This document shows positions 19,648-61,587 of a stretch of 64,000 nucleotides of DNA, piece by piece. Under the pieces are notes generated by a model. It saw nothing but the letters and a program-made list of their open reading frames with translations. It had not been told where the DNA came from and searched no databases. The stretch's first letter is position 1, and each line of letters starts with the position of its first letter. Position numbers and translations under genes: made by a program. Source of the DNA: an uncultured virus (IMG/VR IMGVR_UViG_3300020185_000029) (Duplodnaviria > Heunggongvirae > Uroviricota > Caudoviricetes); the IMG/VR virus record IMGVR_UViG_3300020185_000029, positions 1 through 64,000 of that record; one strand, 5' to 3'.

Positions 19648-19683
19648 TTGCTCAATTGCTCTAATCTCAATATCATCTTCCGT

Positions 19684-29750: not shown

Positions 29751-29785
29751 ATTGTTAAATTAAAGTTTAAATCTATAATTTGAAA

Positions 29786-33944: not shown

Positions 33945-33947
33945 AAT

Positions 33948-37013: not shown

Positions 37014-37021
37014 ATTGTATA

Positions 37022-37369: not shown

Positions 37370-37371
37370 AA

Positions 37372-40300
37372 TTATCCTATAAAAGTTAAAGATCCTGTGT
37401 TATCGTATGATGCGTCTAAAGTACCGATGCCACTATATTTAATTATATTTAAATCTACAGAATCAGCAAAGTATTTTTTCTTTACCATTTGGATATTTAA
37501 GTCATCATCTCCAGTAAGAACAACATAACCCGAATAGCCAGTTAGATTAATAGAAGGTATATTAAAGAAGCCAGTGCATTTAGCAAATCCAGTATTGTTA
37601 ATACCAGTAAGAATCTCATACTCTCCAGTAAAGGTCTTTATATAGTTTGGAATAGGGAAGCTATAACTCAAAGATTCTAAGTCAGCAGGATTAACAAAAT
37701 CAGTATAAAATCCAGTTCCAATAAAAGAGCTATTTAAGTTTCCAGTGAATGGAGTTATAGGAACATTTCCAGAAGATAGTAAAAATACCTCCTGTCCTGT
37801 TGGTACTACTGAATTTATAAACTGCGGCAGTCCAGTTTGAATTCCAGAGAAATTAAACTCTCCGCTTCCTGGGTATACTATTCCAGTAATGTTTCCAGAT
37901 ATTACTCCAATTCCAATCTTGACTCCCGTTTTTTGTAAGTTTCTTTGAGTGAAGTTTAATATTCCAGTGTAATCAAACGATCCAGTTAATATCCCAGTTG
38001 CAAAGTTGAATCCCTTTCTAACTCCCGAATATATAAAATTATCTGCATAAGAATCCTCAAACCCTCCTACTGGTTGGTCAAAGGTTATTGTCTGCAAATT
38101 CACTCCACTAAATGGAAGCATATTGAGAATGGCTTGGTCGAATTCGCCAGACTGCTGTCCAGCAAGGATCGTAATAGGGTCTATTCCAGTTCCACTTGCT
38201 ATGGTTGGCACATAGCCAGTGACTGTAGCATCTAGGTCTAGAATATTGCCACTGAAGTCTAAATTATCTATATACCATTTGGCAGGCCCAGTTTGGATTC
38301 CCGTATAACCTATAGCATATAAAGAACCAGTACTGTCATCCCCAGTAGCAAATGATATTCCAGTAGGAACGCCCGAAAATATATAGTTATCCGCATAAAG
38401 GTCATTATCCCCACCCAATGGGGGGCTATTGGATAATGCCCTTACTCCAGTTCCAGAAAAAGGAAACATATTTAAAAGGGTCTGGGCTAATTCGCCAGAC
38501 TTCTCTCCAGCAAGTACCGTAATTTGGTCTATTCCAGTTCCAAGTCCAGTAGAGGGTATTATTCCGCTAGAAGCAAAGGGATCTATATAAATATCTCCTT
38601 CATTTAATGAACTTATAAAGTATTTGGAAGTAGTATTTTCAATACCAGTAAAAGTTATAGAATAAATATTTCCACTAACTCCAGAATTGAAAGGAACGTA
38701 TCCAGTAGCAAAGGTAGTTGGAATTGCAGTAGTTATTTTTCCAGACATTATACCTGAATATGGAAGATTTGATCCTTGGGTAGCAACCTCTATACCAGTT
38801 TCGATTAAAGTATAAAGTCCTCCACTTTGCCTGGTTGCATATTTTGCATCTTTACTCCAAGGACCATAAGCAGTACTTGTGGTAGTGCCAAGACCAAAAC
38901 CTAATGCACCTCCGATTGGGTAAGTTAATCCAGGATCAGAAGTAAATCCAATTCTGCCACTTCCAAAATATACATTATACCCAATTTTATCACAATATGC
39001 TTTCATGATACCGCTAATCTCTTCCATACTACTTTGATAATTAGATATTCCTAATCGCTCTATTAGTTCATAATTACCCAATGAATAACCGTCGATTTTT
39101 TCGTTGGTGGAGTCTACTCTTTTTCTTAAAAAGCCAACCACATTATTCATAAAAATTCCAGTAGGAATCTCAAAATTATTTATACTTTTCTCGCCATTAA
39201 AATTTCCAGTCATTTGAGTGAATATTTCGTTGGGTATGTTACTATTAGGAAAAAGACTTTCATCTTGAAGGGCATATAAAAATCCAGCATTTTCACCAGT
39301 TACTTCAATAGTACCGCCAACTCCAGACATTCCAGTACCCTCAAAGCTGACATTTTCAGCATATCCAGTCATATTAAACCCAGTTTGAAATACATTCAAG
39401 CCACTTGTAACGCTAATGGTGTTTGGTAAAGCTATGGCGATCCTATTAGTTGTAGACCCAGTTGGATATTTGGTATCGGCAGATAGTAGATATCCACTAG
39501 CATCAGTCGGTGAAGAGTAATTTGTTAAAAATCTGCGAAATCCCTGCCCAGAGCTATCTAAGAACGTATTAAACTGGCGAGGGCCGAACTCAGGTGGATT
39601 CTTGCTGTTGTCGGTGTCCTGAAAATAGAAGTAATTAAACCCACTAGGTTCCAAATCTTCGGTGTCTGAAGTTATTAGAAAGTAGACATTAAACACACCA
39701 TATTGGTCTGCGTTTATATTTCTATCGTTAAATCTCTCATTGAAATCAGTAGTTGAATTAACGCTTATGGTTTCTCTCTCTTTATAGATCATATCTGCAA
39801 GGTTATTCCCAGTATAAACAGTAATTCTGTAGCTTCTACTTTTTCGGCTTTTGTAAACTCCAGTTCCAGATAAAAAGTACTTAGGACTTACGCCAACTGT
39901 CATGTCTGACGGATCGAGATCGAAAAAACCACTCAGCAATCTTCTATTGAGCCATACTGGGTTATGAATATATGAACCCCTGTCTGCATCGTTAGTAGAA
40001 AATGATAATATAGGGGCCTTTTCGTTGGTGTGATCAGAATATAGAAGTATTCCACTGTTGCCACTAAAAATAAAGGGATTAAATCTTGTATAAACGCTGG
40101 AAACGGGGATTCCGTAGGAATTTCCATTCAAAGAAATGCTATCGTCAATAAGCGCTCCAGTGTTTGTTAGATACCGACCAGTTACCCCACTTTCCCCATT
40201 GAAAATTATATCTTTTACTGGTTCAGAAATTGAGCCTATGAGGCCAAGTCCAGTATATCCTATACCAGTAATTTCTTGAGGATGCACATATGCGCCAGTT

Positions 40301-42609
40301 CCTGAATAATGAAACTGACCAGTAAAATCAACATATCCAGAAGAAATGTCTTGTGCTTGAACAGTAAAATTCTTGCTGAAAGTGTTGCCCAATCGAATAG
40401 ATCTGAACAAATAATCATAATTTCCTAGCATTGACAAATCAGTAGCAACATATCTGTCGTCCGTAACTTCATGAACAGTTTCATTAGTCATTCCACTCAA
40501 AAGTTTACCTTTTGCAATGTAATTATAAGTAAAATCTATTCCAGTAAATCCACTTGCTAATGCAGAAGCTTGCCCAGTAATTATTCCGCTACCCGTCAAA
40601 ACTCCAGTAGTAAATTTAGATTCGATTCCAGTTATTCCAGTTCCACTAAATATAAATCCAGTTAAATTTGGATCTTCTGGCAATAACCCAGTTGCTAGTC
40701 CAGTAAGCTCTGTACTAACATACAAACTGTAATCGGGTATTGGAAACTTCATATCAATTCTATTGATTCCAGTAACATTAAAAGCCCCAGTTCCAGTCCC
40801 TATGAATGCCCCTGGAGTTCCAGAAACCTTAAATCCGCTAATAATATTCGTTCCAATTAAACCAATTTGGTCGGCAGGAATTCTCATTTCTCCATCAAAA
40901 ATTCCACTAGAAAACCCGCTAAATATATTAGAATAATAAACATTAGAAGTTTGATTAGATCCAGCGCCAGTTACTCCAGTACCAAATGAGAGCAATCCAG
41001 TAAGATTTGGATCTTCTGGCAATAAGCCAGTTGCTAGTCCAGTTAAAATTCTGTCAGATAGATCTATCGTCCAGCCATTATTAACAAAACCTCCTTGGGA
41101 ATCTCTAGTGTCCATCGGAAAGGTTCCAATGAGGTCAAAAACCCCAGTTCCAGTCCCTATGAATGCCCCTGGAGTTCCAGAAACCTTAGATCCACTAATG
41201 GTAGTGGTTATATCTAAGCCAGCCTGATCTCCTGGGTAATACGCAATCCCATCAAATGCGCCAGTTGCAAATCCGCTAAATCTACTGGCATATTCCTTAT
41301 TTCTTGTTTGATTTGATGTAGCGGTAAACGACTGAACGTCGAAGGAAAAGCAAAGAGAGTCATTTTTCGATGTTACTATCGGTTCTCCGTCAGTATTATT
41401 TCCACTAAGTATTATTCCAGTCGTAAAGCTTGGAAATAGAGACTGTTGACCAGTAAATCTAATAGCGCCAGTTTCAGTGAAGTTATATCCTCCACTAACA
41501 TTCCTTATGAATCCAACATCTAATCCAGTTACAATCCCACTAGAGGACGTTAAAAATGGATACGACATTTCTCCAGTAGCAAATACTGTTTCTCCAGTAT
41601 AAATCTGAGATGGTATATTTCCAGTATAATTAATTTCAAGACCAGTGCTATAGCCAGAGAGTGTTAAATACCCGCCGCCCAAGCTGGACTCAATCATTCC
41701 AGTTAAATTGCCAGTGCCTATTATATTTCTAGAAATATCAAATCCTGGAATTGACCCAGTTATTTTACCAGTTTTAATATCATAGTCAGCGTAACCACCA
41801 TAGCCACTAATATTACCAAATGTAAAATGAAGTCCGAATGGATCATCTGTAAGATTTGGACCGTATCTTTCAGAAAATAAAACATTATAATTAAATATTC
41901 CAGTAGAATCCAAAAAGTCTGACCCCAATAAACTCAACAGGTACTCGTATTCCCTCGTAAAACTAATTAAGCCGCTTTTTGTAAAAGTTCCAAAGTCTGA
42001 AACAAAAGATATTGGTATCAGTACTCCAGTTCCAGTAGTGACATTTGAAATTTGATTAATTAAAAAGTCTCTACTAGATTGACCCTCTATTATTCCAGTA
42101 TTTTGTCCAGTATTGAAATTGAAAAAGTTAGATAATTCTTCAAATTTTCCAGAAAATATATTAAATGATATTCCCTCACTAGAATTATTGCTAACCTTTA
42201 AACTTCCAGTTAAATTACTATTTTCGAATATTCCACTAATACTAATTACTGGCTCTACTCCCATTAAACTAAGTTCCGAAACTACTCCATTTTCAGTAAA
42301 GTTATTTATGTAGCCAGTGCCATTTTCATGGTAAGAATTTATAAGTACATTATTAACGAAATAATTATTATAATTCCCAATTTTATTCCCAGAAACGGAG
42401 AAAGTATCTTGATTCTTGTAAGAGTAGAAAAAGTTATTATCAGAATCATAAAGCTTTCCGCTTTCGCCACTAAAAACAATCCTATCTTCAATAGAGCCAT
42501 CTCCAGTATTTATAAATGAAAACCCAAATGAAATATGATCGTCCCTTTGAGGCCGTATAAAGGCTTGATAAGAAAAGTTTCCTGACTGGGTTCCAATTGA
42601 GAATGACAT
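37372..42609 (-). CDS. Large Ser/Thr-Gly-rich beta-structured virion (tail tip/fibre) protein
   Basis: 1745 aa; about 140 SG/TG dipeptides by manual count; internal duplications; located in the tail operon. Confidence 0.8.
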   Translation of the reverse strand: MSFSIGTQSGNFSYQAFIRPQRDDHISFGFSFINTGDGSIEDRIVFSGESGKLYDSDNNFFYSYKNQDTFSVSGNKIGNYNNYFVNNVLINSYHENGTGYINNFTENGVVSELSLMGVEPVISISGIFENSNLTGSLKVSNNSSEGISFNIFSGKFEELSNFFNFNTGQNTGIIEGQSSRDFLINQISNVTTGTGVLIPISFVSDFGTFTKSGLISFTREYEYLLSLLGSDFLDSTGIFNYNVLFSERYGPNLTDDPFGLHFTFGNISGYGGYADYDIKTGKITGSIPGFDISRNIIGTGNLTGMIESSLGGGYLTLSGYSTGLEINYTGNIPSQIYTGETVFATGEMSYPFLTSSSGIVTGLDVGFIRNVSGGYNFTETGAIRFTGQQSLFPSFTTGIILSGNNTDGEPIVTSKNDSLCFSFDVQSFTATSNQTRNKEYASRFSGFATGAFDGIAYYPGDQAGLDITTTISGSKVSGTPGAFIGTGTGVFDLIGTFPMDTRDSQGGFVNNGWTIDLSDRILTGLATGLLPEDPNLTGLLSFGTGVTGAGSNQTSNVYYSNIFSGFSSGIFDGEMRIPADQIGLIGTNIISGFKVSGTPGAFIGTGTGAFNVTGINRIDMKFPIPDYSLYVSTELTGLATGLLPEDPNLTGFIFSGTGITGIESKFTTGVLTGSGIITGQASALASGFTGIDFTYNYIAKGKLLSGMTNETVHEVTDDRYVATDLSMLGNYDYLFRSIRLGNTFSKNFTVQAQDISSGYVDFTGQFHYSGTGAYVHPQEITGIGYTGLGLIGSISEPVKDIIFNGESGVTGRYLTNTGALIDDSISLNGNSYGIPVSSVYTRFNPFIFSGNSGILLYSDHTNEKAPILSFSTNDADRGSYIHNPVWLNRRLLSGFFDLDPSDMTVGVSPKYFLSGTGVYKSRKSRSYRITVYTGNNLADMIYKERETISVNSTTDFNERFNDRNINADQYGVFNVYFLITSDTEDLEPSGFNYFYFQDTDNSKNPPEFGPRQFNTFLDSSGQGFRRFLTNYSSPTDASGYLLSADTKYPTGSTTNRIAIALPNTISVTSGLNVFQTGFNMTGYAENVSFEGTGMSGVGGTIEVTGENAGFLYALQDESLFPNSNIPNEIFTQMTGNFNGEKSINNFEIPTGIFMNNVVGFLRKRVDSTNEKIDGYSLGNYELIERLGISNYQSSMEEISGIMKAYCDKIGYNVYFGSGRIGFTSDPGLTYPIGGALGFGLGTTTSTAYGPWSKDAKYATRQSGGLYTLIETGIEVATQGSNLPYSGIMSGKITTAIPTTFATGYVPFNSGVSGNIYSITFTGIENTTSKYFISSLNEGDIYIDPFASSGIIPSTGLGTGIDQITVLAGEKSGELAQTLLNMFPFSGTGVRALSNSPPLGGDNDLYADNYIFSGVPTGISFATGDDSTGSLYAIGYTGIQTGPAKWYIDNLDFSGNILDLDATVTGYVPTIASGTGIDPITILAGQQSGEFDQAILNMLPFSGVNLQTITFDQPVGGFEDSYADNFIYSGVRKGFNFATGILTGSFDYTGILNFTQRNLQKTGVKIGIGVISGNITGIVYPGSGEFNFSGIQTGLPQFINSVVPTGQEVFLLSSGNVPITPFTGNLNSSFIGTGFYTDFVNPADLESLSYSFPIPNYIKTFTGEYEILTGINNTGFAKCTGFFNIPSINLTGYSGYVVLTGDDDLNIQMVKKKYFADSVDLNIIKYSGIGTLDASYDNTGSLTFIG

Positions 42610-42615
42610 GTCTTT

Positions 42616-44802
42616 TTATTTTTTGATGAATTTTAAAAGCTTTTCCCGATTCGAAGGTAGCACCTCTATATTTCGGGTATTTAAAGAACTTTTTACTGAA
42701 TACACATTCTTCTTTGGAGGTAATGAATTTGGATTGCCGACAATAACTGCACCCCTTGGCTGAGTTATTAATTCTTTACTAGGTAAAGTAAAGTTTCTAT
42801 TGCCAATCGTATAAGTAGTTTTTACGCCATTACTACTAATACTTATATCTACGTTTTGCAGCCCCTTTTCTATAGAAGCGGTATAATTTGGTATATCTAT
42901 ATTATTAATTGTAAAAGTTTTTTGGACTTTTTTCTGCGTTATAGTATATCCCAAGTTTGGGTAATTAGTTAATGATCCTCCTATTCTAGGACTATTACCA
43001 AGCCTTATATTATTACCGTCTACTTGAATTATATCCGATAAGGCCGCTACTTGATTTGGTGATGTATCCAAATCGACGTCAGTCCTAATTGTATTAGAAT
43101 TATAACTTGGCTGAGTAAAAGCTATTGACTCTAAAGCAGCTGTAAAATTCTCTTCTCCTCCTTGATCTCCTCCTCCTCCTCCATCATCAATGCTGCCCCT
43201 TATATCGATTCTTTGACCCTCCACTCTCAGAGTCTGCTTTAACTCGTATTTAAAGTTTATTCTTTCAAATATATTAGTGAAGTTTATATTCTTAAGAACT
43301 GCTGCAAACTTCAAATTTGGATTATATCCGTCACTTCTAGCCTTGTATCTAGCGGAACTACTTACTTCTAAAAATATTACAGACTTATTTAAATTTAATG
43401 ATTTAACACTATCATAAACGTCGAAAGACAAATCCCACGGAATGGTTGCATATATTCTATGATTACTTTCAGCTGCACTCTTCCTATCTGGATTGACATA
43501 TTCAGTTATATCCTCTCTGTCATACTTTAAATCCGCACCAATAGCCCAATTGTATCTAAAATATTGGGCTTCAGCTAGATTATTCTCGTAGGTCAAGAAT
43601 TGCGCAAATTTTTGCTTTACAGTTTCCACTGTGACTGTATCGGAAATATCTGACTCAATATATGAGATTATGTTATAATCCTCATATAAATCATCCTTTG
43701 GATCAAAAGCCTTTTTTTGCTTAGGGTTCAAAGTATAGACCTGTTCATATCCAAATACACTTGAATATGAATTTGGATCTTTCTTGCACAAGTACAAAGC
43801 AGCGTAAGCAAAAAAAGACTCTCCTACCGCAGCAGCTTTGCCTAGATTTATAGCAAATCCTGGATTAGCCCAATACTGATCTGGCCTGTCAGTAGGCCTA
43901 TAAAGATATATCTGTGTATCTGATTTCTCTTCAAATTCTCCATACTTAGTTTCTCCGCCTCCACCAGTGCTTGTTGTATTTCCGCCTCCTCCACCAGCAT
44001 CTATATTTTTACCAGGCTTTCCGTAATAAACGGAGTGACCTTTTGATATAGTATCTCTCAATGAGAATGAGTTTTTTTCAGATATGAAGTTAACTTCGTT
44101 AGGGAAAACTGGAGAAATACTTTCAGTAAGATCTATAAACTGTATCTTACCAGACTCATTAAAAAAAAAGGTAAATCCATATATTGAACCCCAAGAACTT
44201 AATACGTTTCTTAAAGTACCAGTAGTTTCCTTCAATAGGCTATTATCGTGTCTGGCTAAAGCAACATCTATATTTTCAATTTTCCCTCGAATTTTTCCCA
44301 ACAGCTCCTCAAGGTTATATAAATAATCTGGGAGCTGCCTGACATCCTGAGAGGAGGTTGATCTAGTTAGTGGAATCGAATCTCCACCTAATTCCGACGA
44401 TTCTTCTAATGTAAAGTATCCTCTGCCAACTAGTATTAAAGACTCGTCCGTTGCTGTTGCGTTAAAATTTCTCCCCAATAAAGCAACAAACTTTTTGTCT
44501 AAAAGAAGAATCGACTTGTCGTTATAAGTGACGGTCAAAATTCTTCCACTAACACTATCGTCTATGGAGTACTCTATCGCAACCATATTTAGTTCTCTTG
44601 ATCCTAGATTTATCTTATCACTATCAAAAACATTCAAACTATCTTCGCTTATAGTGTAAGCTCCATTCTCGCTCGAAATAGTTAATGTTAACTGCGTGAC
44701 TTGCGTCCCAAAGCCAATAGAATAAGATGCACTAATTATTAGTCCACCGTACGCTGAAGTACTCCCATTCAAAGTAACCTTATCTGTTTTTCTTATCGCC
44801 AT
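42616..44802 (-). CDS. Putative tail tip / baseplate hub protein
   Basis: TGTLRNVLSSWGSIYGFTFFF..G.IQFIDL resembles hub-like domains; late motif at 44813-44820. Confidence 0.55.
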   Translation of the reverse strand: MAIRKTDKVTLNGSTSAYGGLIISASYSIGFGTQVTQLTLTISSENGAYTISEDSLNVFDSDKINLGSRELNMVAIEYSIDDSVSGRILTVTYNDKSILLLDKKFVALLGRNFNATATDESLILVGRGYFTLEESSELGGDSIPLTRSTSSQDVRQLPDYLYNLEELLGKIRGKIENIDVALARHDNSLLKETTGTLRNVLSSWGSIYGFTFFFNESGKIQFIDLTESISPVFPNEVNFISEKNSFSLRDTISKGHSVYYGKPGKNIDAGGGGGNTTSTGGGGETKYGEFEEKSDTQIYLYRPTDRPDQYWANPGFAINLGKAAAVGESFFAYAALYLCKKDPNSYSSVFGYEQVYTLNPKQKKAFDPKDDLYEDYNIISYIESDISDTVTVETVKQKFAQFLTYENNLAEAQYFRYNWAIGADLKYDREDITEYVNPDRKSAAESNHRIYATIPWDLSFDVYDSVKSLNLNKSVIFLEVSSSARYKARSDGYNPNLKFAAVLKNINFTNIFERINFKYELKQTLRVEGQRIDIRGSIDDGGGGGDQGGEENFTAALESIAFTQPSYNSNTIRTDVDLDTSPNQVAALSDIIQVDGNNIRLGNSPRIGGSLTNYPNLGYTITQKKVQKTFTINNIDIPNYTASIEKGLQNVDISISSNGVKTTYTIGNRNFTLPSKELITQPRGAVIVGNPNSLPPKKNVYSVKSSLNTRNIEVLPSNREKLLKFIKK

Positions 44803-44851
44803 TCCTTTATTTTATTACACTTAATTATAGTCCATTTTAAACTTAATCAAA

Positions 44852-46948: not shown

Positions 46949-46966
46949 ATATTTATATTACACCTT

Positions 46967-48847: not shown

Positions 48848-48889
48848 TCCTATATCTATATACAGACATTTAACTAGTATGTGAAATAG

Positions 48890-52146: not shown

Positions 52147-52154
52147 TTTTATAA

Positions 52155-55100: not shown

Positions 55101-57923
55101 AAAGTTTTTTGGCGCATTTCTTGCCTGCTCGGCTAAACTTGGCTGTATTATTGCTGGTGGACCAGCGACTTCAGGGACAAGCCTTGTTTTTCCCTTTAAG
55201 TCCGTTTGTCCAGTAAAAGTAAATCTGCTATTTCTAAGGTCCCCAGTAAATCCAGTTGATCCAGGATTATAAATTGGATCACCTACTGGTCTAAATTTCC
55301 CTTTATCATTTTTAACAAAAGGTTTTTGTGTCGGAGATACTCTAGTCCTTTCATCAGCACCGCTTGGTGGTGTTTTTGGTGTATCTCTACCAAAACCTCT
55401 AGTAGCCTGTTGTGCAGCCATAGAAGTTTGTTCAGCAGCAGCCTGTCTCAATAGTGTTGGAATTTTAAAGCCTTGACCAGAGGCTAAACCAGCTTCAATT
55501 CTTGAAATTTGTCTTGGAGTTAAAGGCTGTCCTGCTCTCAGCCTTCTTTCCATTTGTTTAATTTCTGTATCGCCTAAGTTGACCCTGCCTGAGGATTGAC
55601 CAAAAGGAAAAGGATCGGTTACATCAAGATTGACCCTGCCTTCTGCAAAATTAGGTATATAGGTAGCTCCCCCAGCTCTAACCCTTCTTATATCAGAGAG
55701 TTTTATATTTTTAGTTACTTGTTCGCCACCCTGCATACCTCTAAGAGTAACCATCTGATTCTCCCTTTGGTATTGCTTCCAGCTAGAATACCCCTTAGGA
55801 GGCGGCTTTCCAGCCTTAGATGACTGAGCAACCATAGATGAATGCTGAACCCCTGAAAGCTGTCTAACTGAGTCATATTTCTTACTGTAGTAGCTTACAG
55901 ACTGAAACTTGGTGTTACCCATCAGAAGCTTGCTAATGCCATCCCTAGAGGCCTTGTAGGTCAATCCCTTAACCATAGGGATCTTACCTCTGGCAAAGTT
56001 TCCACCCATAGAGCTAATAGCAGAAGATCCTGCCATATCTCTATTCAATACAATGTCGCCATTTTTATTAGGTATTAAAATCTCATCACTATTCAATACG
56101 GCTGGCCCAATCTTGCCCTTTCCATAATTGAATGAATTTACTACTTTTACTTGCGCGTTTGAACTAGCTCCACCAACGCCATTACTGATCGCCCTTTTTT
56201 CATTTTCTATTGCTCCCCCCAAAGTTCCTCCAGCAAAACCTTTTGCTCTTCCTCCTTTCCTACTTACGTCTCCAGTAAAAACAGATCCACCAAGAGATAC
56301 ACCCTGTCTCGACAAGCTTTGCGCAGTTCTAATCGAACTAGCTTCTAAGGCTTTTTGCGCAGCAAGTTGTTTAGTCAGCAAGCCTAATATAATTTGTTCT
56401 TTTTGTGCCTGCGAAGTTGCTAATTCTAGTTGTTTTAACTCGGAAGAGGTAGCTTGAGCTAACAAGCTTTGAATAACTCTCTGATTTGCTATTCGTTTTT
56501 CTGAAACTTTGTTTATACCACTGAGTTGAAGCAAACTTGCGCCACCCTGAGTGAATACATTTTTTAAAGTATTGGCAATAATTGCCAAGCCAGTTACAAA
56601 TGCAGGACCAGTCAAGACTTTCACAAACCCTTCAGCAAGTGGCGCTAAAAGCTTAAGATCATTAGCTAGTAAAATTACGTCCTTGGTAATATTCGCCAAA
56701 AAGGACCCACCTCCAATATCATTGCCTTGAAGAGCTTCTAGCAATACATTTATATCCGTTACAATAGACTTGAAGAAGTCTTGAAGCCCAGCCTTTCCAA
56801 GGCCTGCAAAAATTTGACCTATATTGTTAGATATTTGATTACTAATACCCTCAATAGTTTGATTGTAAGCTAAGTTGGCTATAATAGCTTCATTAGTTGC
56901 CTTAGTCGCAGCGTCTGTCGCTCCTCCAGCAATACTTTGTTGGGATGCTAAATCTCTAAATAGGGCCGACAATTTTGAAACCTGGAACTGGCCAGCAACA
57001 ACTGTAGATATTTGAGTGGCAAGACTTCTTTCCCCGTCCTTTTGAGCTTGACTAATGGCTACAGATGCTGCTACTAAGTTATCAAAGGTCGAGGCACTTT
57101 CATCAACAGCGACCCCAAGTTCTTTCAACTGTGCAATTCTAGTAGGTAAATTAAGTCTAGTTAAAGCAGTCTTCAGACCTTGACCAATAGTAGCGCCACC
57201 CAAACCAGTTCTTTGTTTTATCGCAGTAATGAAACCCAGCAATTCTTCAAACGATATGCCAGCATCCTGAGCAACGGATGCCGATCTAGAAACCGCATCA
57301 ATTAGATCTGTAGAAGAAACCGCAAAAGCAGTTTCAACTGCTCTTAACTTATTTATGACTTCAGTAGTCGTTATAGCAGAGGATGCAAAACCATTAACAA
57401 CCGCAGTTAAACCAGAAATTGCTTTTTCTGTGTTTAAAGTTGTTAGTCGAGTTAATATCAGAGCGTCACTTGTTCTCTTTAGAGTTTGCTCTACGCTCAA
57501 GCCCTGTCTGGCAAATTCCTGTGCAGTTTCAGCTACTCTTTGAAATCCCTGACCAGTATTCTTAGCAACCTTAAACAGCTCGTCACCAAACTTCGATATC
57601 GTATCGCTACTTCTTCCGAAGATGGAGTTAATAGCATTCAAGCTACTTTCCACCTGTACTACGGTGGTAGCCAATTCTAGGAAGGCTCTTCTTACCCCTT
57701 CAATGACGGCCACAGAAGCACCGAAAGCGATGACACGGGCATTAGAAGCTTCAAGTGATTTAGTAAACTCATTTGCCTTGCCTGTAATTCTGCCTAAAGC
57801 CTGCTCACTTCGCTTTGTGTCAATTATAACTTTACGTTTTTCAAGACCACGCAACTGAGCATTAAACTCTCTTGTGTTTGAGAGTTTTACTTCCGCTAAT
57901 ATTTCTAAATCAGATCTAGCCAT
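52155..57923 (-). CDS. Tail tape measure protein
   Basis: 1922 aa, helical; TP901-like core (AQEFARQG, AFAVSSTDL..AV.RS.S.A...G.SFEEL.G...GATIGQGLKT); follows the tail tube. Confidence 0.9.
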   Translation of the reverse strand: MARSDLEILAEVKLSNTREFNAQLRGLEKRKVIIDTKRSEQALGRITGKANEFTKSLEASNARVIAFGASVAVIEGVRRAFLELATTVVQVESSLNAINSIFGRSSDTISKFGDELFKVAKNTGQGFQRVAETAQEFARQGLSVEQTLKRTSDALILTRLTTLNTEKAISGLTAVVNGFASSAITTTEVINKLRAVETAFAVSSTDLIDAVSRSASVAQDAGISFEELLGFITAIKQRTGLGGATIGQGLKTALTRLNLPTRIAQLKELGVAVDESASTFDNLVAASVAISQAQKDGERSLATQISTVVAGQFQVSKLSALFRDLASQQSIAGGATDAATKATNEAIIANLAYNQTIEGISNQISNNIGQIFAGLGKAGLQDFFKSIVTDINVLLEALQGNDIGGGSFLANITKDVILLANDLKLLAPLAEGFVKVLTGPAFVTGLAIIANTLKNVFTQGGASLLQLSGINKVSEKRIANQRVIQSLLAQATSSELKQLELATSQAQKEQIILGLLTKQLAAQKALEASSIRTAQSLSRQGVSLGGSVFTGDVSRKGGRAKGFAGGTLGGAIENEKRAISNGVGGASSNAQVKVVNSFNYGKGKIGPAVLNSDEILIPNKNGDIVLNRDMAGSSAISSMGGNFARGKIPMVKGLTYKASRDGISKLLMGNTKFQSVSYYSKKYDSVRQLSGVQHSSMVAQSSKAGKPPPKGYSSWKQYQRENQMVTLRGMQGGEQVTKNIKLSDIRRVRAGGATYIPNFAEGRVNLDVTDPFPFGQSSGRVNLGDTEIKQMERRLRAGQPLTPRQISRIEAGLASGQGFKIPTLLRQAAAEQTSMAAQQATRGFGRDTPKTPPSGADERTRVSPTQKPFVKNDKGKFRPVGDPIYNPGSTGFTGDLRNSRFTFTGQTDLKGKTRLVPEVAGPPAIIQPSLAEQARNAPKNFSKELKEYNYKDFKKQFAAGAVPSGFRGDAAPFAEFKRRLRLELIEAELKKESKSQGKSLSFEELNRSKEGRELANKIKNAGLVNFKQIEKGTRNAVQQSLLADAQTQLEKSGTGRFGFDSGLEKKAKGILNSSTGKKLTPESRAKFNESVQSRKIARGQRLQGAGFGLSFAGALAAPVIGQGIAKVSGNERAGSIASGALGGAATGASVGAFSGNPLGIAIGAGVGGLLGGVSAALSTATDDASKYSKSLGEQQDFYKKNIASAQAYVNAQFRLNDAFESGTASGKQIAALFSDIQRTFNDFQNDPNLGKSERGRKLKQDFVTATPEERRGILDELQREGQSKIRTASTQKAFDDFATKSKDRRATIEKETETIRGVGQFAFGAPITRVTNQDQLDLSKITEDEVSLFIGGLLADIDLDNVDFSTLEKSGSNLQRLIALGLEKETAKAFALQFDTNKLLSNLFKKVIGDGSIKTNIIEQQAAAAITDANFKVAGANRDSDAASSNLFQAQAGQSAADRITQRGEVSRASNLAQNKLEFLSRQGFDQTRKKQDLQISNLKTALTDGLKDLNLGASGGVQSAFKDRLSTFTPEQRAEVSPILERVANEGASISDINSLIGKTDDKDLKQELAKLAIELAGNRDALVANTNQSLADTVALNQQAENQRVAQAALNDLGSKTGGQNLSQLFGEDRAANSLTEEIRTGMRKTFLGLGQYGGDNGANPVREVLADKNSPEAQALKGAADVIREQFNLVTRSKAEGGQLTDEQSKRARSIFERELSKGDRTPEGLADLPGRLERVFDRLSDQGVRLDLDELVKIETNTGEEIGGFEVINQGLGDIVESLREVSPTLGSLLSKVTPTEGRLPGAPPVVEGGNESATAADSAANVLAALKIQEAEAVINRDAIATLVEKLNANTLTQQQFIEASNNLSQKIAEGVIKTTDVVTNIDIKLPEGSIARLGSVEEAVEEFRRNLESIVDTISE

Positions 57924-57933
57924 GCCTATATAC

Positions 57934-57941
57934 TATTACAC
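57934..57941 (-). promoter_or_regulatory. Putative late promoter GTGTAATA
   Basis: 18 nt before the tape measure ATG, just downstream of a terminator. Confidence 0.7.
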
Positions 57942-57942
57942 T

Positions 57943-57979
57943 AAAAAAAAGCCCACTGATAAAAAAATCAATGGGCTTT
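57943..57979 (-). terminator. Rho-independent terminator after the tail tube gene
   Basis: AAAGCCCATTGAT...ATCAGTGGGC followed by T8. Confidence 0.85.
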
Positions 57980-58003
57980 GTTTTTTAAATGAATATTTAA
58001 AAT

Positions 58004-59233
58004 TTATGAACGACCTGCGTATCTCGCAGCAAGTTCTGCTGTTGTGACGGCTCCACTGAAGAATATGCCTTTTCCAGTTTCATCAACAGTACCAAGTGGG
58101 ACTTGGAATGTTACAGAACCGTTTCTTGCAGATCCGATATCAAGAGATGTATTTTCCGATTCGAAGGTAGCACCTCTAACAAAAATAGCGAATTGATCTG
58201 TATCTACCGAATTACCAGTACTTCCAGCAGTTACAATACTAAAGTCAAACTCAGTGTTCGATGTGCCGTTGAATAGATCAACAAGAGAACCTGTTGACAT
58301 ATCAGTGACATTAAAATCGAAGCTTACTGTTCCATCGATTGGTGTTTGCAATGGGCGAGCAAAAACGAATTGACTTCCTAGTCTTTCAAGGTTGTCACGA
58401 GCAACTGGAACGCTAACGGAAAACGAATTGATATTCGATTCTGTAATGTTAACACCCATGTTACCCGAAAGAGCATTGATGTTAAGTTTAATTCCACCTT
58501 GTTTGATGACCGCTGGCATTGTAGAACCTGCACCAGCAAAAGCTCCAGTGGAGTCTTGTGAGATTGCAGGAATATCATATTGCCACCCAGTAACCTTGTC
58601 TCCATTTTCTGGGAAAATTGCTGGAGAAATGTTGCCAGTACTATTAGAATTAACTACGTAATTAGAACCTTCAACAGAAACTGTAGATTCCATGAACCCA
58701 CCAACACTTGCGCTAACTTCATAATTAGTTATGAAGCCATTCGACAAGCAAACTACAAAGTCCTCTGAATCGGCAGAGGTATCTCCATAAACGGACTTAC
58801 CTTCTGGGACGAATTGTGCGAAATAGTTCTTGGAATCATTTGTAGAATCAAAGAATCCAGACAAGCAATTTCTCAAGCCACTTACATTTCCAGCAATAGT
58901 GGAAGTTTCAAGGGACACTGGAAATCCAAGAATAGCTTCGTTCAATCCATTATTAGTGAAATAAGTGAAATCGAAGGTTGGGGTCGGTGCAGAAGTAGCT
59001 AATTTGGCAAGAGTAGTAGCTTGTCCAAATTGATTAATGTTCTGAAGAGGGTTGTCGAAAGAGTCGGAGAACGACTGTACTCTGAATAGTGGTCTGATTT
59101 GGTTATCACCGCTTGATCCACTTAATAGATTGGTGTAACCGTAAAGACCATCTGCAAAGTGTCTGCCAGTTGCTGGCGAAGGGCCTACAAATAGGCCAGC
59201 ACTTTCATATCTTGTTTGAATTCTTTTTGCCAT
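58004..59233 (-). CDS. Major tail tube protein
   Basis: RVQSFSDSF...INQFGQ, VPVARDNLERLGS..FAR; sits before the tape measure and has its own terminator. Confidence 0.7.
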   Translation of the reverse strand: MAKRIQTRYESAGLFVGPSPATGRHFADGLYGYTNLLSGSSGDNQIRPLFRVQSFSDSFDNPLQNINQFGQATTLAKLATSAPTPTFDFTYFTNNGLNEAILGFPVSLETSTIAGNVSGLRNCLSGFFDSTNDSKNYFAQFVPEGKSVYGDTSADSEDFVVCLSNGFITNYEVSASVGGFMESTVSVEGSNYVVNSNSTGNISPAIFPENGDKVTGWQYDIPAISQDSTGAFAGAGSTMPAVIKQGGIKLNINALSGNMGVNITESNINSFSVSVPVARDNLERLGSQFVFARPLQTPIDGTVSFDFNVTDMSTGSLVDLFNGTSNTEFDFSIVTAGSTGNSVDTDQFAIFVRGATFESENTSLDIGSARNGSVTFQVPLGTVDETGKGIFFSGAVTTAELAARYAGRS

Positions 59234-59289
59234 AGTTTTAAAAAAGTTGGGTTATAATAGTTAATACATTTTATTTGCGAAATTGTGAA

Positions 59290-60126
59290 TCATTTTCTTG
59301 GGAACCTATAAGCTATAATCGAAAATTCTGCATAGCCTATATTAAACTCTGAAAATTCATTATCTACACTATTTGTAGAGTTTATAGTCACCTTATCAAT
59401 ATAAGCTTTTTCATACCCACCGCTAAATGCTGCGTTGATATCATTGTAGCTATATTCTGGATCTTTTAAGTCACCCTTAAAGTCCCAAGGTATTTTTTCA
59501 AAGTCTCCTACCGAAAAGTAATTTTCCCTCAAATCTCTAAATATAGATAAAGCTCCATCCAAATCATAGTAATTATCAGTTAAAACTAAAGTCTGTAAGT
59601 TATAAGTTACTTCATCTAGGCCACCAAATGCGAGAGGCTCGCTAGAGCTATTTTTAGAACTGACTATAATGCATGGGGCATTTATTCTCAAATTATTAGA
59701 TCCAGTTAAAAAGTTCAACGGGTCCTTGGACCTAAAAGCTTCTCTCAATAAAACCTGAGTTTCATTTTCTGGTTTAAAGTATACGTTAAAGTCCTTGTAT
59801 GCGAATGCTCCCGACACTGGAGAGTCTCCAAAGTCTTCATGATAAGCGCCACCATTTAAAAAGTCTATAGACAATCCACTAGTACCTCTATTCACCTCTT
59901 CGCCATTTACATAAACTCCACTTGGGATTATAGCACCAGTAATTGAGTGATCATAAACCCACTGACCATAAGGACTATTTGAAAAGGTTAGTCCATTAAT
60001 ATTATTTTGATCGTTTGGGTAAAAAATTCCAGTAGTATTAGTAAAAGCCTGCCCCTTCTCTAAGAGCCTGTTTTCTAGATATAGAGTAAAATAAGACCCT
60101 AGCTTATGATCGTATTGCGGTATCAT
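59290..60126 (-). CDS. Putative tail terminator/completion protein
   Basis: Position before the tail tube; PCIIV...PLAFGG motif. Confidence 0.5.
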   Translation of the reverse strand: MIPQYDHKLGSYFTLYLENRLLEKGQAFTNTTGIFYPNDQNNINGLTFSNSPYGQWVYDHSITGAIIPSGVYVNGEEVNRGTSGLSIDFLNGGAYHEDFGDSPVSGAFAYKDFNVYFKPENETQVLLREAFRSKDPLNFLTGSNNLRINAPCIIVSSKNSSSEPLAFGGLDEVTYNLQTLVLTDNYYDLDGALSIFRDLRENYFSVGDFEKIPWDFKGDLKDPEYSYNDINAAFSGGYEKAYIDKVTINSTNSVDNEFSEFNIGYAEFSIIAYRFPRK

Positions 60127-60689
60127 CTATTCCCCCCTCTAAGTTTTGTTTCAAAAATATCTCTTAATCTGTCTAGATACGAACTATCTCTTGGCTCACT
60201 CTCCCTGTTTATTGAGTTTTTAATCTGATAACCAAGCTCAGACCTACCAGCACCTGGCTTAAATAAGAATTTTTCAATACTTCCTAGCCCCTCCTGCAAC
60301 GCTTGCACCCAAGTCTTTGCAGTCCACGGTAGACTCAATCGATCATCATTATAAATTTCTGGCCTTGATGGATATTGTATTTGAAACTTGTAAAATGCTC
60401 TATTTTTATCTCTAGTAGTGCTAGGCCTAGTATTCAGTTGAATTTTTTCTTCGAAAGATTCTTTTATATCTTGCACTGGATTTTGTGATGGCTCTAAGCC
60501 GAAGTAACCTCTTGTTTTATCATCAGACTGAACCATTTGTGACGACCTATCAGAGCCAACCTCCGACAAAAACTGCCTCTTAGATCTTTTGAAATCGGCA
60601 GACATTTTTTTTATTGCGCTAGACCTAGCCTTTCTTCCAGTTAAGGCTTTCGTAATTTTCTTATTTATCTGTGCCTTGAAGATTGCCAT
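60123..60689 (-). CDS. Basic neck/tail completion protein
   Basis: Synteny in the head-tail joining cluster; K/R-rich. Confidence 0.45.
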   Translation of the reverse strand: MAIFKAQINKKITKALTGRKARSSAIKKMSADFKRSKRQFLSEVGSDRSSQMVQSDDKTRGYFGLEPSQNPVQDIKESFEEKIQLNTRPSTTRDKNRAFYKFQIQYPSRPEIYNDDRLSLPWTAKTWVQALQEGLGSIEKFLFKPGAGRSELGYQIKNSINRESEPRDSSYLDRLRDIFETKLRGGNR

Positions 60690-61132
60690 TAGTTAATTTT
60701 CTCTAGGAAGTAAGTGTAGAAGTTATTTTGCAGTAAGCCGTGTCTTCTTGGTTCTGAAATTAAATCATAAAACTCTTCATCCCAATAAACGTCCTTTGAG
60801 TCTTCTAAAAAATCTCTTCCCGTTATATCAGTTACTAGCTTAATTCTAGGGCTTGCTGCAACACTACCCTGATTTCCGTCTATTGGCTTAAATTCAGTAC
60901 CTCTGTCTAGATAATATGCCCTAGCCAAAAACATTCCACTGGTTTGAGTTTCAACAGTTTTACTATTCTCAATGCTATTTTGATAATAAGAGTTATGAGC
61001 GCTACTCTCACTAATAACAGTAGTAGTACCTTTTTTGATAGCAAATAATTTGTTTTTACTAGCAAAAAAATTATGCAAACTCATCATTCCATCATTAACA
61101 CTATCTTGCTGACTGTCGGTCAATACTATCAT
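60689..61132 (-). CDS. Putative head closure/stopper protein
   Basis: Small beta-rich ORF in the head-tail joining position. Confidence 0.45.
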   Translation of the reverse strand: MIVLTDSQQDSVNDGMMSLHNFFASKNKLFAIKKGTTTVISESSAHNSYYQNSIENSKTVETQTSGMFLARAYYLDRGTEFKPIDGNQGSVAASPRIKLVTDITGRDFLEDSKDVYWDEEFYDLISEPRRHGLLQNNFYTYFLEKIN

Positions 61133-61587
61133 TAATACTTGAAGCCAGTTAAATTCTCTTGAGGGTCTCTTGGTCCAGACCTATTATATTTATATAGATT
61201 TACTAAATCCGTAGACCTGCTATCCATATCTCTAGCAATTTTATATATCTCCACAGAGGAATCCTTACTCTTTTCAAAAGTAACTGAACTTTCGTCATCC
61301 TTTATAGAGACAATGTTTCCGCCACTAGAGCTTTTTATTAAGATATCCCTAGATAGATTTGTATAATACTCAACATAGTATAGAGACTTTAAGATGTCTT
61401 TTTCGTCTTGATGTAATAGAGGTGCATATTCTCCAGAATTTAAACTGTAGTTAGTAGAAATCTTATTGTTTAATTTCCCGACGTTGTATTCTAGCCAAAG
61501 GTTTATTCTATTTTGACTTGGTTCGCTAGGGAAATTTAACTCTTGATGAAGCTCATAAGCAACTCCTGTTAATTGGTACGTAGACAT
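61132..61587 (-). CDS. Putative head-tail adaptor
   Basis: Helical, with an IVSIKDDESSVTF hairpin; CTGTAATA motif 14 nt upstream. Confidence 0.5.
   Translation of the reverse strand: MSTYQLTGVAYELHQELNFPSEPSQNRINLWLEYNVGKLNNKISTNYSLNSGEYAPLLHQDEKDILKSLYYVEYYTNLSRDILIKSSSGGNIVSIKDDESSVTFEKSKDSSVEIYKIARDMDSRSTDLVNLYKYNRSGPRDPQENLTGFKY

What the first reader, a model, noticed from the sequence alone, without database searches (positions are those of the whole stretch)
37372..61587. Ser/Thr-Gly saturation of exterior tail proteins: candidate sequon for a virion glycan coat
Seen: about 140 SG/TG dipeptides in the 1745-aa protein (one per ~12 residues, visible as recurring ccagt in the DNA), about 40 in the 698-aa LamG-like protein and about 13 in the tail tube, all manual counts. 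They are aperiodic, and GS/GT looks much rarer. Non-structural enzymes and the major capsid show no such excess. The same window encodes ~8 GT-like genes, gmd, HldE-like enzymes, two methyltransferases and a sulfotransferase. Known: Ser-Gly is the proteoglycan attachment motif, Aah/TibC heptosylate Ser in Gly-rich repeats, and virion glycosylation occurs in some mycobacteriophages. Inference: a sequon-directed system that densely O-glycosylates the tail, possibly with methylated or sulfated glycans, for shielding or host attachment.
Basis: partly seen in the sequence, partly recalled or inferred. Interest (0 to 1): 0.85.

Follow-up and report, generated by a model that had tools for sequence, protein, structure and literature searches.

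The report
Ser/Thr-Gly excess in phage tail fibres
Two large outer tail proteins of this uncultured marine phage put a serine or threonine in front of about 60% of their glycines; this may mark where the phage's own sugar-adding enzymes act, but a purely structural reason is almost as likely and no chemistry exists.

Summary
The counts are right. The 1745-aa protein has 141 [ST]G against 47 expected (z 15). The 698-aa protein has 41 against 13 (z 10). G[ST] is not enriched. The "tail tube" count of 13 is not significant (9 expected). The 728-, 775-, 549- and 536-aa tail proteins, the tape measure and the capsid show no excess. Only 3 of the ~8 claimed glycosyltransferase (GT) genes have family support.

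The excess is specific to Ser and Thr; Asp-Gly and Asn-Gly are depleted. It has a direction, hydrophobic flanks, and the best-conserved residues of both proteins, which are unrelated by profile comparison. The same rich / not-rich / rich gene order recurs across an aquatic siphovirus-like clade of about 140-180 kb. T4, cyanophage S-RIM8 and E. coli Ag43 lack the excess.

A GT module beside the fibre genes is a clade core: its GT9-like gene is in 28 of 32 records and 5 of 5 complete ones. The GT9 fold is split over two genes and matches no autotransporter-heptosyltransferase model. No GT-less relative could be shown, so co-occurrence carries no contrast.

Structure prediction failed on the dense segments. 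In the one confident (LamG-like) domain the motifs sit at strand ends.

Verdict: modification tag, most plausibly O-glycosylation, about 0.42; purely structural element about 0.38. This scan noted the same theme in at least 16 other genomes.

The parts
37372..42609 (-). 1745-aa distal tail (fibre-like) protein. S/T precedes 141 of its 232 glycines. It carries two internal ~113-aa duplications. It is an orphan family.
   Evidence: 141 against 47.2, z 15.3; motif context; motif S/T 85% identical against 59% for other S/T; duplications; 6 hits among 1.84 billion representatives; no Pfam or PHROG hit.
44852..46948 (-). 698-aa protein with a LamG/ConA-like jelly-roll domain (about residues 104-264), followed by [ST]G-dense segments. 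Homologues occupy the same position across the clade.
   Evidence: 41 against 13.0, z 9.9; pLDDT 80-93 in the jelly roll, 22-24 in residues 265-316. Foldseek probability 1.0 to lectin-like jelly rolls. HMM hits in G003, G007, G010, G019 and G022.
42616..44802 (-). 728-aa conserved tail protein between the two rich genes. It is not enriched and serves as an internal negative control.
   Evidence: 4 against 10.0; its three BLAST-confirmed homologues (L020_860, L022_897, L024_788); these score 9 against 7.6, 9 against 11.0 and 4 against 9.4; proteins of similar size at the same position in G010, G019 and G007 score 2 against 6.9, 9 against 10.6 and 8 against 9.8.
59290..60126 (-). 278-aa conserved tail or neck protein with a modest excess across the clade.
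   Evidence: 7 against 3.1; 47 against 24.2 pooled over 8 members (1.94-fold).
61132..61587 (-). 151-aa conserved virion-module protein with a modest excess.
   Evidence: 5 against 1.2; 13 against 4.8 pooled over 3 members.
58004..59233 (-). 409-aa protein just upstream of the tape measure. It is called a tail tube by position only. Its excess is not significant.
   Evidence: 13 against 9.0, z 1.6; 1.37-fold pooled over 8 members; no family hit.
52155..57923 (-). Tape measure protein, 1922 aa, not enriched.
   Evidence: PF10145, E 1.5e-18. PHROG tape-measure families; 31 against 27.1.
48890..52146 (-). Two conserved proteins of 549 and 536 aa after the tape measure, in the Dit/Tal positions. 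Neither is enriched.
   Evidence: 9 against 7.8 and 11 against 7.2; pooled 1.32-fold and 1.06-fold.
29780..31705 (+). 641-aa glycosyltransferase. It is GT-B/GT4-like over residues 6-442. Its last ~110 residues carry the N-terminal start of a GT9 heptosyltransferase fold, with an invariant ESxGD motif.
   Evidence: phrog_2170, E 4.8e-16. Glycos_transf_1 at the cut-off; profile A12 matches residues 8-66 of PDB 3tov (E 0.0021) and 2-36 of 1psw.
31705..32871 (+). 388-aa protein. The GT9 C-terminal (nucleotide-sugar) domain lies at residues ~53-175, followed by an unknown domain of ~210 aa. It is a core gene of the clade.
   Evidence: PF01075, E 1.1e-10; residues 53-145 match residues 217-309 of 1psw. 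LPS heptosyltransferase models only, all below cut-off; present in 28 of 32 records.
27774..28968 (+). Split HldE-like pair: a heptose-7-phosphate kinase-like ORF (27774-28571) and a heptose-1-phosphate adenylyltransferase-like ORF (28537-28968).
   Evidence: TIGR02198 at E 3.5e-43 and TIGR02199 at E 1.5e-25. Both are the best hits but fall below the curated cut-offs.
29046..29690 (+). 214-aa protein of unknown function, conserved next to the GT pair.
   Evidence: 48% identical homologue beside the GT in G001; no family hit.
33243..33944 (+). 233-aa protein of unknown function, conserved after the GT9-like gene across the clade.
   Evidence: homologues in 9 other records.
8607..9719 (-). 370-aa glycosyltransferase-like protein.
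   Evidence: phrog_2170, E 2e-10; homologues in G001 and G003.
19648..20712 (+). GDP-mannose 4,6-dehydratase.
   Evidence: PF16363, E 8e-105.
2453..3253 (-). Sulfotransferase-family protein. No link to the motif is shown.
   Evidence: PF13469, E 1.8e-16.
13235..13867 (+). Methyltransferase. PHROGs calls its relatives DNA methyltransferases. No link to the motif is shown.
   Evidence: PF13578, E 1.2e-14; phrog_2675.

Best explanation
The 1745-aa and 698-aa proteins are distal tail (fibre or baseplate-periphery) proteins of an uncultured aquatic siphovirus-like clade. In certain fibre protein families of this clade, a Ser or Thr precedes about 60% of all glycines, in the context hydrophobic-[ST]-G-hydrophobic.

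My preferred reading is that the dipeptide is a clade-specific recognition tag on the hydroxyl residue. The most plausible use is O-glycosylation in the infected cell's cytoplasm by the clade-core transferase module that lies next to the fibre genes. That module is a GT4-like enzyme fused to the N-terminal piece of a GT9 fold, plus a second protein carrying the GT9 nucleotide-sugar domain. The donors would be phage-made nucleotide sugars: an ADP-heptose-like sugar from the split HldE pair, and possibly a GDP-deoxyhexose via gmd.

Shown: the excess, its specificity, its conservation, its distribution over the clade, and the presence and architecture of the enzymes.

Inferred: that the enzymes act on these proteins at all, the identity of the sugar, and its purpose (shielding, stability or host attachment).
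For: - The excess is specific to the hydroxyl residues. In 10 rich proteins only S (O/E 2.54) and T (3.57) precede G in excess. D-G (0.66) and N-G (0.52), which I recall as the commonest turn dipeptides, are depleted. In 11 non-rich tail proteins D-G is 1.44 and S-G and T-G are 0.76 and 0.64.
- It is directional: G[ST] is at expectation.
- Two families with no detectable homology share it in one phage (hhalign probability 0.3%). It runs through every 100-aa window, including the LamG-like domain (5 against 1.5).
- It is lineage-specific rather than a general fibre property. 18 T4 structural proteins reach at most z 2.0. 11 S-RIM8 proteins reach at most z 2.7.
- The motif residues are the best-conserved positions: S/T 85% identical against 59%, and G 95% against 76%.
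- Across homologues at 21-28% identity the number of sites is kept (31-49 each), while only 7-14 of the window's 26-32 aligned sites are kept. That points to selection on density as well as on position.
- Rich proteins occur in 19 of the 22 clade records of which I examined a stretch.
- The GT9-like gene is in 28 of 32 records and 5 of 5 complete ones. Wherever I looked, it lies convergent to and directly after the fibre genes.
- The nucleotide-sugar motif GNDSFAVH and the ESxGD motif are invariant across the clade.
Against: - No chemical evidence exists.
- Co-occurrence has no contrast. Every sufficiently complete member has both traits, so it counts as one evolutionary event.
- The GT9-like protein's only NCBIfam hits are LPS heptosyltransferases I, II and III. 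No autotransporter heptosyltransferase model appears.
- E. coli Ag43, a glycosylatable autotransporter (abstract of PMC3835316), has no [ST]G excess: 27 against 28.9.
- The flanks are hydrophobic (0.51 at -1 and +2, against 0.35 background) and charge is depleted at -1. This looks like strand ends rather than exposed linkers.
- In the one confidently modelled domain the motifs lie at strand ends and loops, as a turn element would.
- A recognisable propeller domain in homologue P0015 is not enriched (3 against 2.6), while its flanks are. The conserved 728-aa family is exempt. So the excess is module-specific.
- The GT module is co-oriented with the replication genes, not the virion operon.
- 141 sites per chain would be an unusually dense modification.
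- The G020/G025 sub-lineage has a rich ORF of at least 3676 aa and no GT9-like gene in 89 and 116 kb of held sequence. Both contigs break inside that ORF, so this is inconclusive.
Confidence: 0.42

Rival explanations
1. The motif is a purely structural element. Hydrophobic-[ST]-G-hydrophobic would be a strand-end turn or beta-arc: the S/T hydroxyl caps the backbone and Gly takes a left-handed conformation. The fibre modules of this clade would be built from this element. The neighbouring GT module would then act on something else, such as host envelope glycans or another target.
For: - The motif positions are the most conserved residues. At 21-28% identity, 27-48% of sites stay in place.
- Flanks are hydrophobic on both sides and charge is depleted.
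- In the confident LamG-like model the motifs lie at strand starts, strand ends and hairpin loops.
- The excess is module-specific. It is absent from the 728-aa family, from the Dit/Tal-like proteins and from the propeller domain of P0015.
- The rich proteins of other clade members form a mosaic of mutually related families, so much of the excess could be inherited.
- The GT9-like protein's closest models are LPS heptosyltransferases.
I did not check it.
Against: - A general structural grammar should also appear in other phage fibres. It does not in T4 (18 proteins) or S-RIM8 (11 proteins).
- Asx-Gly, which turns usually favour (recalled), is depleted rather than co-enriched.
- Two families with no detectable homology share the excess, and it extends into a LamG-like fold.
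- Site numbers are kept while positions turn over.
- The dense segments could not be modelled, so no fold has been shown to need the motif.
Confidence: 0.38
2. The motif is a tag for some other clade-specific factor. Candidates are a different hydroxyl modification such as phosphorylation or acylation, recognition by a fibre chaperone, or protection against an environmental or host protease.
For: The arguments for an outside cause apply equally here: lineage specificity, hydroxyl specificity, and sharing by unrelated families. Several conserved proteins of unknown function sit in and around the module, at 29046-29690, 33243-33944 and 37022-37369.
Against: No protein kinase, acyltransferase or recognisable chaperone was found in the window. 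The only conserved candidate enzymes next to the fibres are sugar-related.
Confidence: 0.12
3. The excess is a nucleotide-level or codon artefact: a DNA or RNA motif ACTGG/AGTGG is the selected unit, and the dipeptide is a by-product.
For: In the 1745-aa gene 79 of 84 Thr before Gly use ACT, against 43 of 90 elsewhere. GGA is favoured after S/T.
Against: - All 104 A[CG]TGG in the gene are in frame 0.
- ACC-GG is excluded because CCGG is absent from the whole genome (0 against 49 expected).
- T is generally preferred before GGN in the other genes too.
- The ACT bias fades in relatives (0.44 against 0.40 in G022) while the dipeptide excess stays.
- Ser uses both the AGY and TCN codon boxes.
Confidence: 0.02

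Closest known systems
Bacterial autotransporter heptosyltransferases (TibC/Aah) acting on TibA and AIDA-I (PMC4358343: abstract and passages read)
   Same: A cytoplasmic GT9-type enzyme uses ADP-heptose to modify many Ser residues of a large beta-rich surface protein. This phage has HldE-like genes and a GT9-type fold with a conserved nucleotide-sugar motif and a conserved Asp-containing N-terminal motif.
   Different: The phage GT9 fold is split over two genes and fused to a GT4-like enzyme. It matches only LPS-type models, weakly. The substrates are tail proteins, not autotransporters. Ag43 shows no [ST]G excess. No iron-finger or dodecamer features were tested.
Mycobacteriophage virion glycosylation (Freeman et al. 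2023; not held in the library, known here only through the citing passage in PMC12619734)
   Same: Phage-encoded glycosyltransferases decorate the phage's own virion proteins.
   Different: According to the citing passage, the glycans there are on the C-termini of the capsid and tail-tube subunits. Here the capsid is not enriched (4 against 4.1) and the signal runs along the whole length of distal tail proteins. The host group and the enzymes are different.
Ser/Thr-capped Gly turns (ST-turn or ST-motif followed by an alpha-L glycine); general protein-structure knowledge, recalled
   Same: A hydroxyl residue directly before Gly at strand ends. The pattern has a direction, and the positions are conserved.
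   Different: Such turns normally share their positions with Asp/Asn-Gly, and they do not take 60% of all glycines. No such excess is seen in T4 or S-RIM8 fibre proteins.
Proteoglycan xylosyltransferase Ser-Gly sites and collagen-like Gly-X-Thr glycosylation as in BclA (recalled)
   Same: A hydroxyl residue followed by Gly is the attachment context.
   Different: There are no acidic flanks; charge is depleted at -1. There is no period of three: spacing 3 accounts for 9 of 140 spacings.

Membership tests
Bacterial autotransporter heptosyltransferase (BAHT; TibC/Aah) | Sequence membership in the BAHT family model | tested here: not met
   NCBIfam scan at E up to 0.01. The five hits are LPS heptosyltransferases I, II and III and RfaF/RfaQ, all far below their cut-offs. 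No BAHT model is listed.
Bacterial autotransporter heptosyltransferase (BAHT; TibC/Aah) | A single chain carrying both GT-B domains, with the catalytic Asp in the N-domain | tested here: not met
   The N-terminal piece (ESxGD motif) is at the end of the 641-aa protein. The C-domain is in the 388-aa protein. They are separate ORFs in every member examined.
Bacterial autotransporter heptosyltransferase (BAHT; TibC/Aah) | Iron-binding Cys motif and dodecameric ring | not tested
Bacterial autotransporter heptosyltransferase (BAHT; TibC/Aah) | Known substrates carry the same [ST]G signature | tested here: not met
   Ag43 of E. coli K-12: 27 against 28.9 over the full length, and 15 against 18.2 in the passenger part. 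Only this one substrate was tested.
Glycosyltransferase family 9 (ADP-heptose-dependent) | Pfam PF01075 above its gathering score | tested here: met
   41.7 bits against a cut-off of 22, E 1.1e-10, residues 64-156. This covers the C-domain only.
Glycosyltransferase family 9 (ADP-heptose-dependent) | N-terminal acceptor domain carrying the conserved Gly-Asp motif | tested here: inconclusive
   It was found only as a ~60-residue profile match in the upstream ORF (3tov at E 0.0021, 1psw at E 0.48). The single sequence gave no hit.
ADP-heptose pathway (HldE) | Kinase and adenylyltransferase domains above the curated cut-offs | tested here: inconclusive
   These are the best hits, but they fall below the cut-offs: 147.9 against 345 bits, and 89.8 against 181.5 bits. 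No GmhA- or GmhB-like gene was recognised.
Virion glycosylation system | Glycan demonstrated on a virion protein | not testable with these tools
   This needs mass spectrometry or glycan staining.
Virion glycosylation system | The motif excess tracks presence or absence of the GT across related phages | tested here: inconclusive
   The GT9-like gene is in 28 of 32 records. The four without it are 53-71% complete. For G020, G021, G023 and G025 the contig ends in or at the fibre module. There is therefore no informative absence.
LamG/concanavalin A-like jelly roll (698-aa protein, residues ~104-264) | Fold match of a confident model | tested here: met
   pLDDT 80-93 over the domain. Foldseek gives probability 1.0 and E about 1e-6 to lectin-like jelly-roll domains, with 354 matches at E up to 0.001. 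There is no Pfam hit.
Proteoglycan-type Ser-Gly sequon | Acidic residues flanking Ser-Gly | tested here: not met
   Charged residues at -1 are 0.06 against a background of 0.14. Hydrophobic residues are 0.50 at -1 and 0.55 at +2.
Collagen-like Gly-X-Thr repeat | Period of three | tested here: not met
   Spacing 3 accounts for 9 of 140 spacings.

The most novel reading that the evidence does not exclude
A whole clade of 140-180-kb aquatic phages builds proteoglycan-like tail fibres. A two-piece GT9 heptosyltransferase, physically coupled to a GT4-like enzyme, reads the minimal sequon hydrophobic-[Ser/Thr]-Gly. It loads on the order of a hundred O-linked, heptose-containing glycans onto each fibre subunit. 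Selection keeps the number of sites while their positions drift.
Probability: 0.3. Interest if true: 0.85.

Novelty: new variant of a known kind. Interest (0 to 1): 0.6.

Why it matters
If the tag is a sequon, this would be the first sequence-defined, dense O-glycosylation of phage receptor-binding structures. It would involve a new, split type of GT9 enzyme, in an abundant clade of uncultured aquatic phages. It would bear on how marine phages shield or aim their fibres, and it would give a minimal sequon and enzyme pair for glyco-engineering.

If the motif is structural, it defines an undescribed, lineage-specific building rule for fibre proteins that current structure predictors cannot model.

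Either way, the signature is a simple marker for finding the outer tail proteins of this clade.

Tried and rejected
- Structure prediction of the whole 698-aa protein with 10 sequences gave pLDDT 33. A second run on residues 60-430 with 20 sequences gave a good LamG-like domain, but pLDDT 22-24 for the densest motif segment. Surface exposure of most motifs could therefore not be mapped.
- Complex prediction with three copies of residues 270-539 of the 1745-aa protein returned 'no answer' (score 0.00, fold uncertain). I draw nothing from it.
- ESM Atlas gave no usable hit for either protein.
- An exhaustive profile search with residues 270-720 of the 1745-aa protein found only 6 proteins, so no deep alignment is possible.
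- tblastn of both proteins against 50,697 phage records found no match.
- Pfam and PHROGs gave no hit for 17 of the 18 virion-module proteins.
- The search for GT-less relatives failed. Scans with the fibre proteins and with the Tal-like profile returned only near relatives. The tube-like profile found 63 loci and a sister group of 30. Every record lacking the GT9-like gene is a fragment that breaks at the fibre module.
- Two attempts to align the large terminase across the clade picked non-orthologous ORFs from G001 and were dropped.
- A nucleotide-level cause was rejected.
- Freeman et al. 2023 is not held in the library.
- A literature search for tail fibre + O-glycosylation + sequon + phage-encoded glycosyltransferase returned 0 papers. 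Searches for phage heptosyltransferase plus virion glycosylation and for ADP-heptose/HldE in marine phages returned nothing on this topic.
Full report
**What the window is.** The window is the first 64 kb of a 78,182-bp IMG/VR phage record estimated to be 49% complete. Its relatives come from TARA and JGI aquatic metagenomes. On the minus strand, from 63 kb down to 34 kb, lies a virion module. It holds a capsid-like ORF, small neck and tail proteins, and a 409-aa protein. A 1922-aa tape measure follows (PF10145 and PHROG tape-measure families). After it come two conserved proteins of about 540 aa, then the 698-, 728-, 1745-, 115- and 775-aa proteins. Apart from the tape measure, none of the 18 proteins hits Pfam or PHROGs. 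On the plus strand, converging on this module, are replication genes and a sugar-related set. The replication genes include RNR, a UvsX-like recombinase, DnaB and a primase. The sugar-related set comprises gmd, a split HldE-like pair, a 641-aa GT and a 388-aa GT9-like protein.

**The observation.** I scored 54 ORFs against 300 shuffles each.
- The 1745-aa protein has 141 [ST]G against 47.2 expected (z 15.3).
- The 698-aa protein has 41 against 13.0 (z 9.9).
- G[ST] is at expectation in both (41 against 47.7; 10 against 13.0).

Local composition does not explain the excess: every 100-aa window of both proteins has O/E above 1.3, typically 2.5 to 4. The internal duplications do not explain it either. 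Homologues that lack both ~113-aa duplications still have 117 against 39.

The motif is aperiodic. S/T precedes 141 of 232 glycines in the large protein and 41 of 68 in the 698-aa protein.

The claim fails for the putative tail tube (13 against 9.0, z 1.6). It also fails for "exterior tail proteins" as a class. The 728-aa protein between the two rich genes has 4 against 10.0. The 775-aa protein has 5 against 9.2. The 549-aa, 536-aa and tape-measure proteins are at expectation. The 151-aa and 278-aa proteins show modest excesses that hold when pooled over clade members: 13 against 4.8 over 3 members, and 47 against 24.2 over 8.

Of about 8 GT-like genes claimed, three have family support. Six ORFs between 10752 and 16271 hit nothing in Pfam, PHROGs or NCBIfam, and the three of them that I searched against PDB sequences hit nothing either.

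**Nature of the signal.**
- *Specificity.* Across 10 rich proteins only Ser (O/E 2.54) and Thr (3.57) precede Gly in excess. Every other residue is depleted, including Asp (0.66) and Asn (0.52). In 11 non-rich tail proteins of the same phages, Asp-Gly is 1.44 and Ser-Gly and Thr-Gly are 0.76 and 0.64.
- *Context.* Over 1573 motifs in 29 rich proteins, hydrophobic residues are enriched at -1 and +2 (0.51 against 0.35 background), with no strong alternation. Charge is depleted at -1.
- *Conservation, 1745-aa family.* In 7 sequences at 44-93% identity, motif S/T are 85% identical (92% as a class) against 59% for other S/T. Motif Gly is 95% identical against 76%.
- *Conservation, 698-aa family.* The pattern is the same in its 10 sequences.
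- *Turnover.* Against distant homologues (21-28% identity), 27-48% of the window's aligned sites remain [ST]G. Each homologue still keeps 31-49 sites in total. Positions are conserved far above background, but there is also turnover at constant density. Alignment error at this distance is a caveat.
- *Unrelated carriers.* The two families are not detectably related (hhalign probability 0.3%).
- *Not a DNA motif.* All 104 A[CG]TGG in the large gene are in frame. The ACT bias before Gly has two causes. One is the total absence of CCGG from this genome (0 against 49 expected). The other is a general preference for T before GGN. The bias fades in relatives that keep the dipeptide excess.

**The clade.**
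- *How it was found.* A profile of the tube-like protein found 63 loci in IMG/VR. A further scan found a sister group of 30.
- *Gene order.* The order is conserved across members. After the tape measure come two proteins of ~530-550 aa that are not rich. Next is a rich protein of ~600-700 aa at the 698-aa position. Then comes a protein of ~800-930 aa that is not rich (the 728-aa family by BLAST where I tested it). Last come one or more large rich proteins.
- *GT module.* Directly after these, on the opposite strand, lies the GT module.
- *Spread of the excess.* At least one protein of 300 aa or more with z above 4 was present in 19 of the 22 records of which I examined a stretch. The three without were the L017 and L019 loci and the G018 stretch, none of which covered that part of the module.
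- *Orphan family.* The 1745-aa family has no detectable homologue in the other sub-lineages.
- *Other rich proteins.* The rich proteins of those sub-lineages form their own mosaic of related families.

**Controls.** 18 T4 structural proteins, including gp34, gp37 and gp12, reach at most z 2.0, and 11-28% of their glycines follow S/T. 11 proteins of cyanophage S-RIM8, including giants of 2389 and 1806 aa, reach at most z 2.7. E. coli Ag43, one of the glycosylatable self-associating autotransporters (abstract of PMC3835316), has 27 against 28.9. So the excess is not a general property of phage fibres, and it is not a property of the one autotransporter heptosyltransferase (BAHT) substrate that I tested.

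**The enzymes.**
- *The 388-aa protein.* It passes the Pfam GT9 threshold. Only its residues 53-145 align, and they align to the C-terminal domain of WaaF (residues 217-309 of 1psw).
- *The missing start of the fold.* It is in the gene upstream. A profile of the last ~130 residues of the 641-aa GT hits exactly two PDB sequences, the same two GT9 entries, at their N-termini. These are 3tov residues 8-66 (E 0.0021) and 1psw residues 2-36 (E 0.48). The motif ESxGD is invariant across the clade.
- *The split.* The two ORFs overlap by one base here and lie 28-34 nt apart in relatives. The GT9 fold is therefore genuinely split, and its N-terminal piece is fused to a GT4-like enzyme.
- *Family assignment.* NCBIfam lists only LPS heptosyltransferases, all below cut-off, and no autotransporter heptosyltransferase model.
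- *Sugar supply.* The HldE-like kinase and adenylyltransferase are the best hits for their ORFs but fall below the cut-offs.
- *Distribution.* The GT9-like gene is in 20 of 23 and 8 of 9 records searched, and in 5 of 5 complete ones.
- *The four records without it.* They are 53-71% complete. G020 begins and G025 ends inside a giant rich ORF. G021 ends just after the fibres, and G023 begins within them. The place where the module would sit is therefore off-contig in each. No informative GT-less genome exists in my sample, so the perfect co-occurrence amounts to one event.

**Structure.** With 20 sequences, residues ~104-264 of the 698-aa protein fold as a confident jelly roll (pLDDT 80-93). Its five motifs lie in a hairpin loop, at strand starts and ends, and at a helix end. 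The densest stretch, residues 265-316 with 10 motifs, has pLDDT 22-24. Its hydrophobic, low-charge composition does not look like a disordered mucin-type linker. In homologue P0015 a recognisable SdiA-regulated propeller domain has no excess (3 against 2.6), while its flanks do (15 against 3.6; 12 against 3.4).

**Weighing the readings.** These points favour a tag read by a clade-specific factor:
- hydroxyl specificity without Asx-Gly;
- lineage specificity;
- sharing by unrelated families, with spill-over into a LamG-like fold;
- constant density despite turnover;
- a core GT module next door.

These points favour a purely structural element:
- very high positional conservation;
- hydrophobic flanks;
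- strand-end location;
- module specificity, and exemption of a conserved neighbour;
- an LPS-like rather than protein-type GT9.

I put the modification tag (most plausibly O-glycosylation) at about 0.42, the structural reading at about 0.38, another extrinsic factor at about 0.12, and a nucleotide artefact at about 0.02. Nothing supports sulfation or methylation of a glycan.

**Earlier notes and the literature.** Earlier notes of this scan report the same theme in at least 16 other genomes. Some lean to a sequon and some to a turn element. Two report that no transferase tracks the excess. I used them as leads only.

I found no paper describing this signature:
- A search on tail fibre, O-glycosylation, sequon and phage-encoded glycosyltransferase returned 0 papers.
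- Searches on phage heptosyltransferase with virion glycosylation and on ADP-heptose/HldE in marine phages returned nothing on the topic.

Noticed in passing
window 29780-32871 (and L016, L020-L025): The GT9 heptosyltransferase fold is split over two adjacent genes throughout the clade. The N-terminal piece, with an invariant ESxGD motif, forms the C-terminus of a 641-aa GT4-like protein. The nucleotide-sugar domain opens the next, 388-aa protein, which has a further unknown domain of ~210 aa.
   Followed up: partly
whole record G000 (window 1-64000 and beyond): CCGG is completely absent from 78,182 bp (0 against 49 expected by a Markov model). GGATCC (0 against 11.7) and GAGCTC (0 against 12.8) are absent too. 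Relatives differ: G001 has 19 against 94 and G003 has 168 against 172. This is restriction-site avoidance specific to the sub-lineage.
   Followed up: partly
window 37372-42609: The 1745-aa protein carries two internal duplications of ~113 aa (residues 539-651 and 1319-1433). Homologues P0002 and P0004 lack both.
   Followed up: partly
G020 22485-41771; G025 105057-116084 (loci L134-L136, L171-L172): A sister sub-lineage (GC 0.45) has a tape-measure ORF of 6429 aa. It also has a [ST]G-rich ORF of at least 3676 aa (300 against 121, z 18.6) that runs off the contig.
   Followed up: partly
G000 73352-74710 (L012 12353-13711): A 452-aa virion structural protein (phrog_1645) is 55-61% identical to proteins of cultured Synechococcus myoviruses. 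That is far closer than any other gene here, which suggests horizontal exchange with cyanophages.
   Followed up: no
window 3288-6854 and 1878-2456: Three consecutive BspA-type leucine-rich-repeat (LRR_5) proteins lie in a GC-richer patch (0.45 against ~0.35). A DUF4376 protein follows them.
   Followed up: no
window 22446-22862: An HNH/homing-endonuclease-like ORF sits between the UvsX-like recombinase gene and the SbcD-like exonuclease gene.
   Followed up: no
G010 124526-125731; G019 92194-93402: In two complete clade genomes the GT9-like match contains one in-frame TAA. I did not examine it.
   Followed up: no
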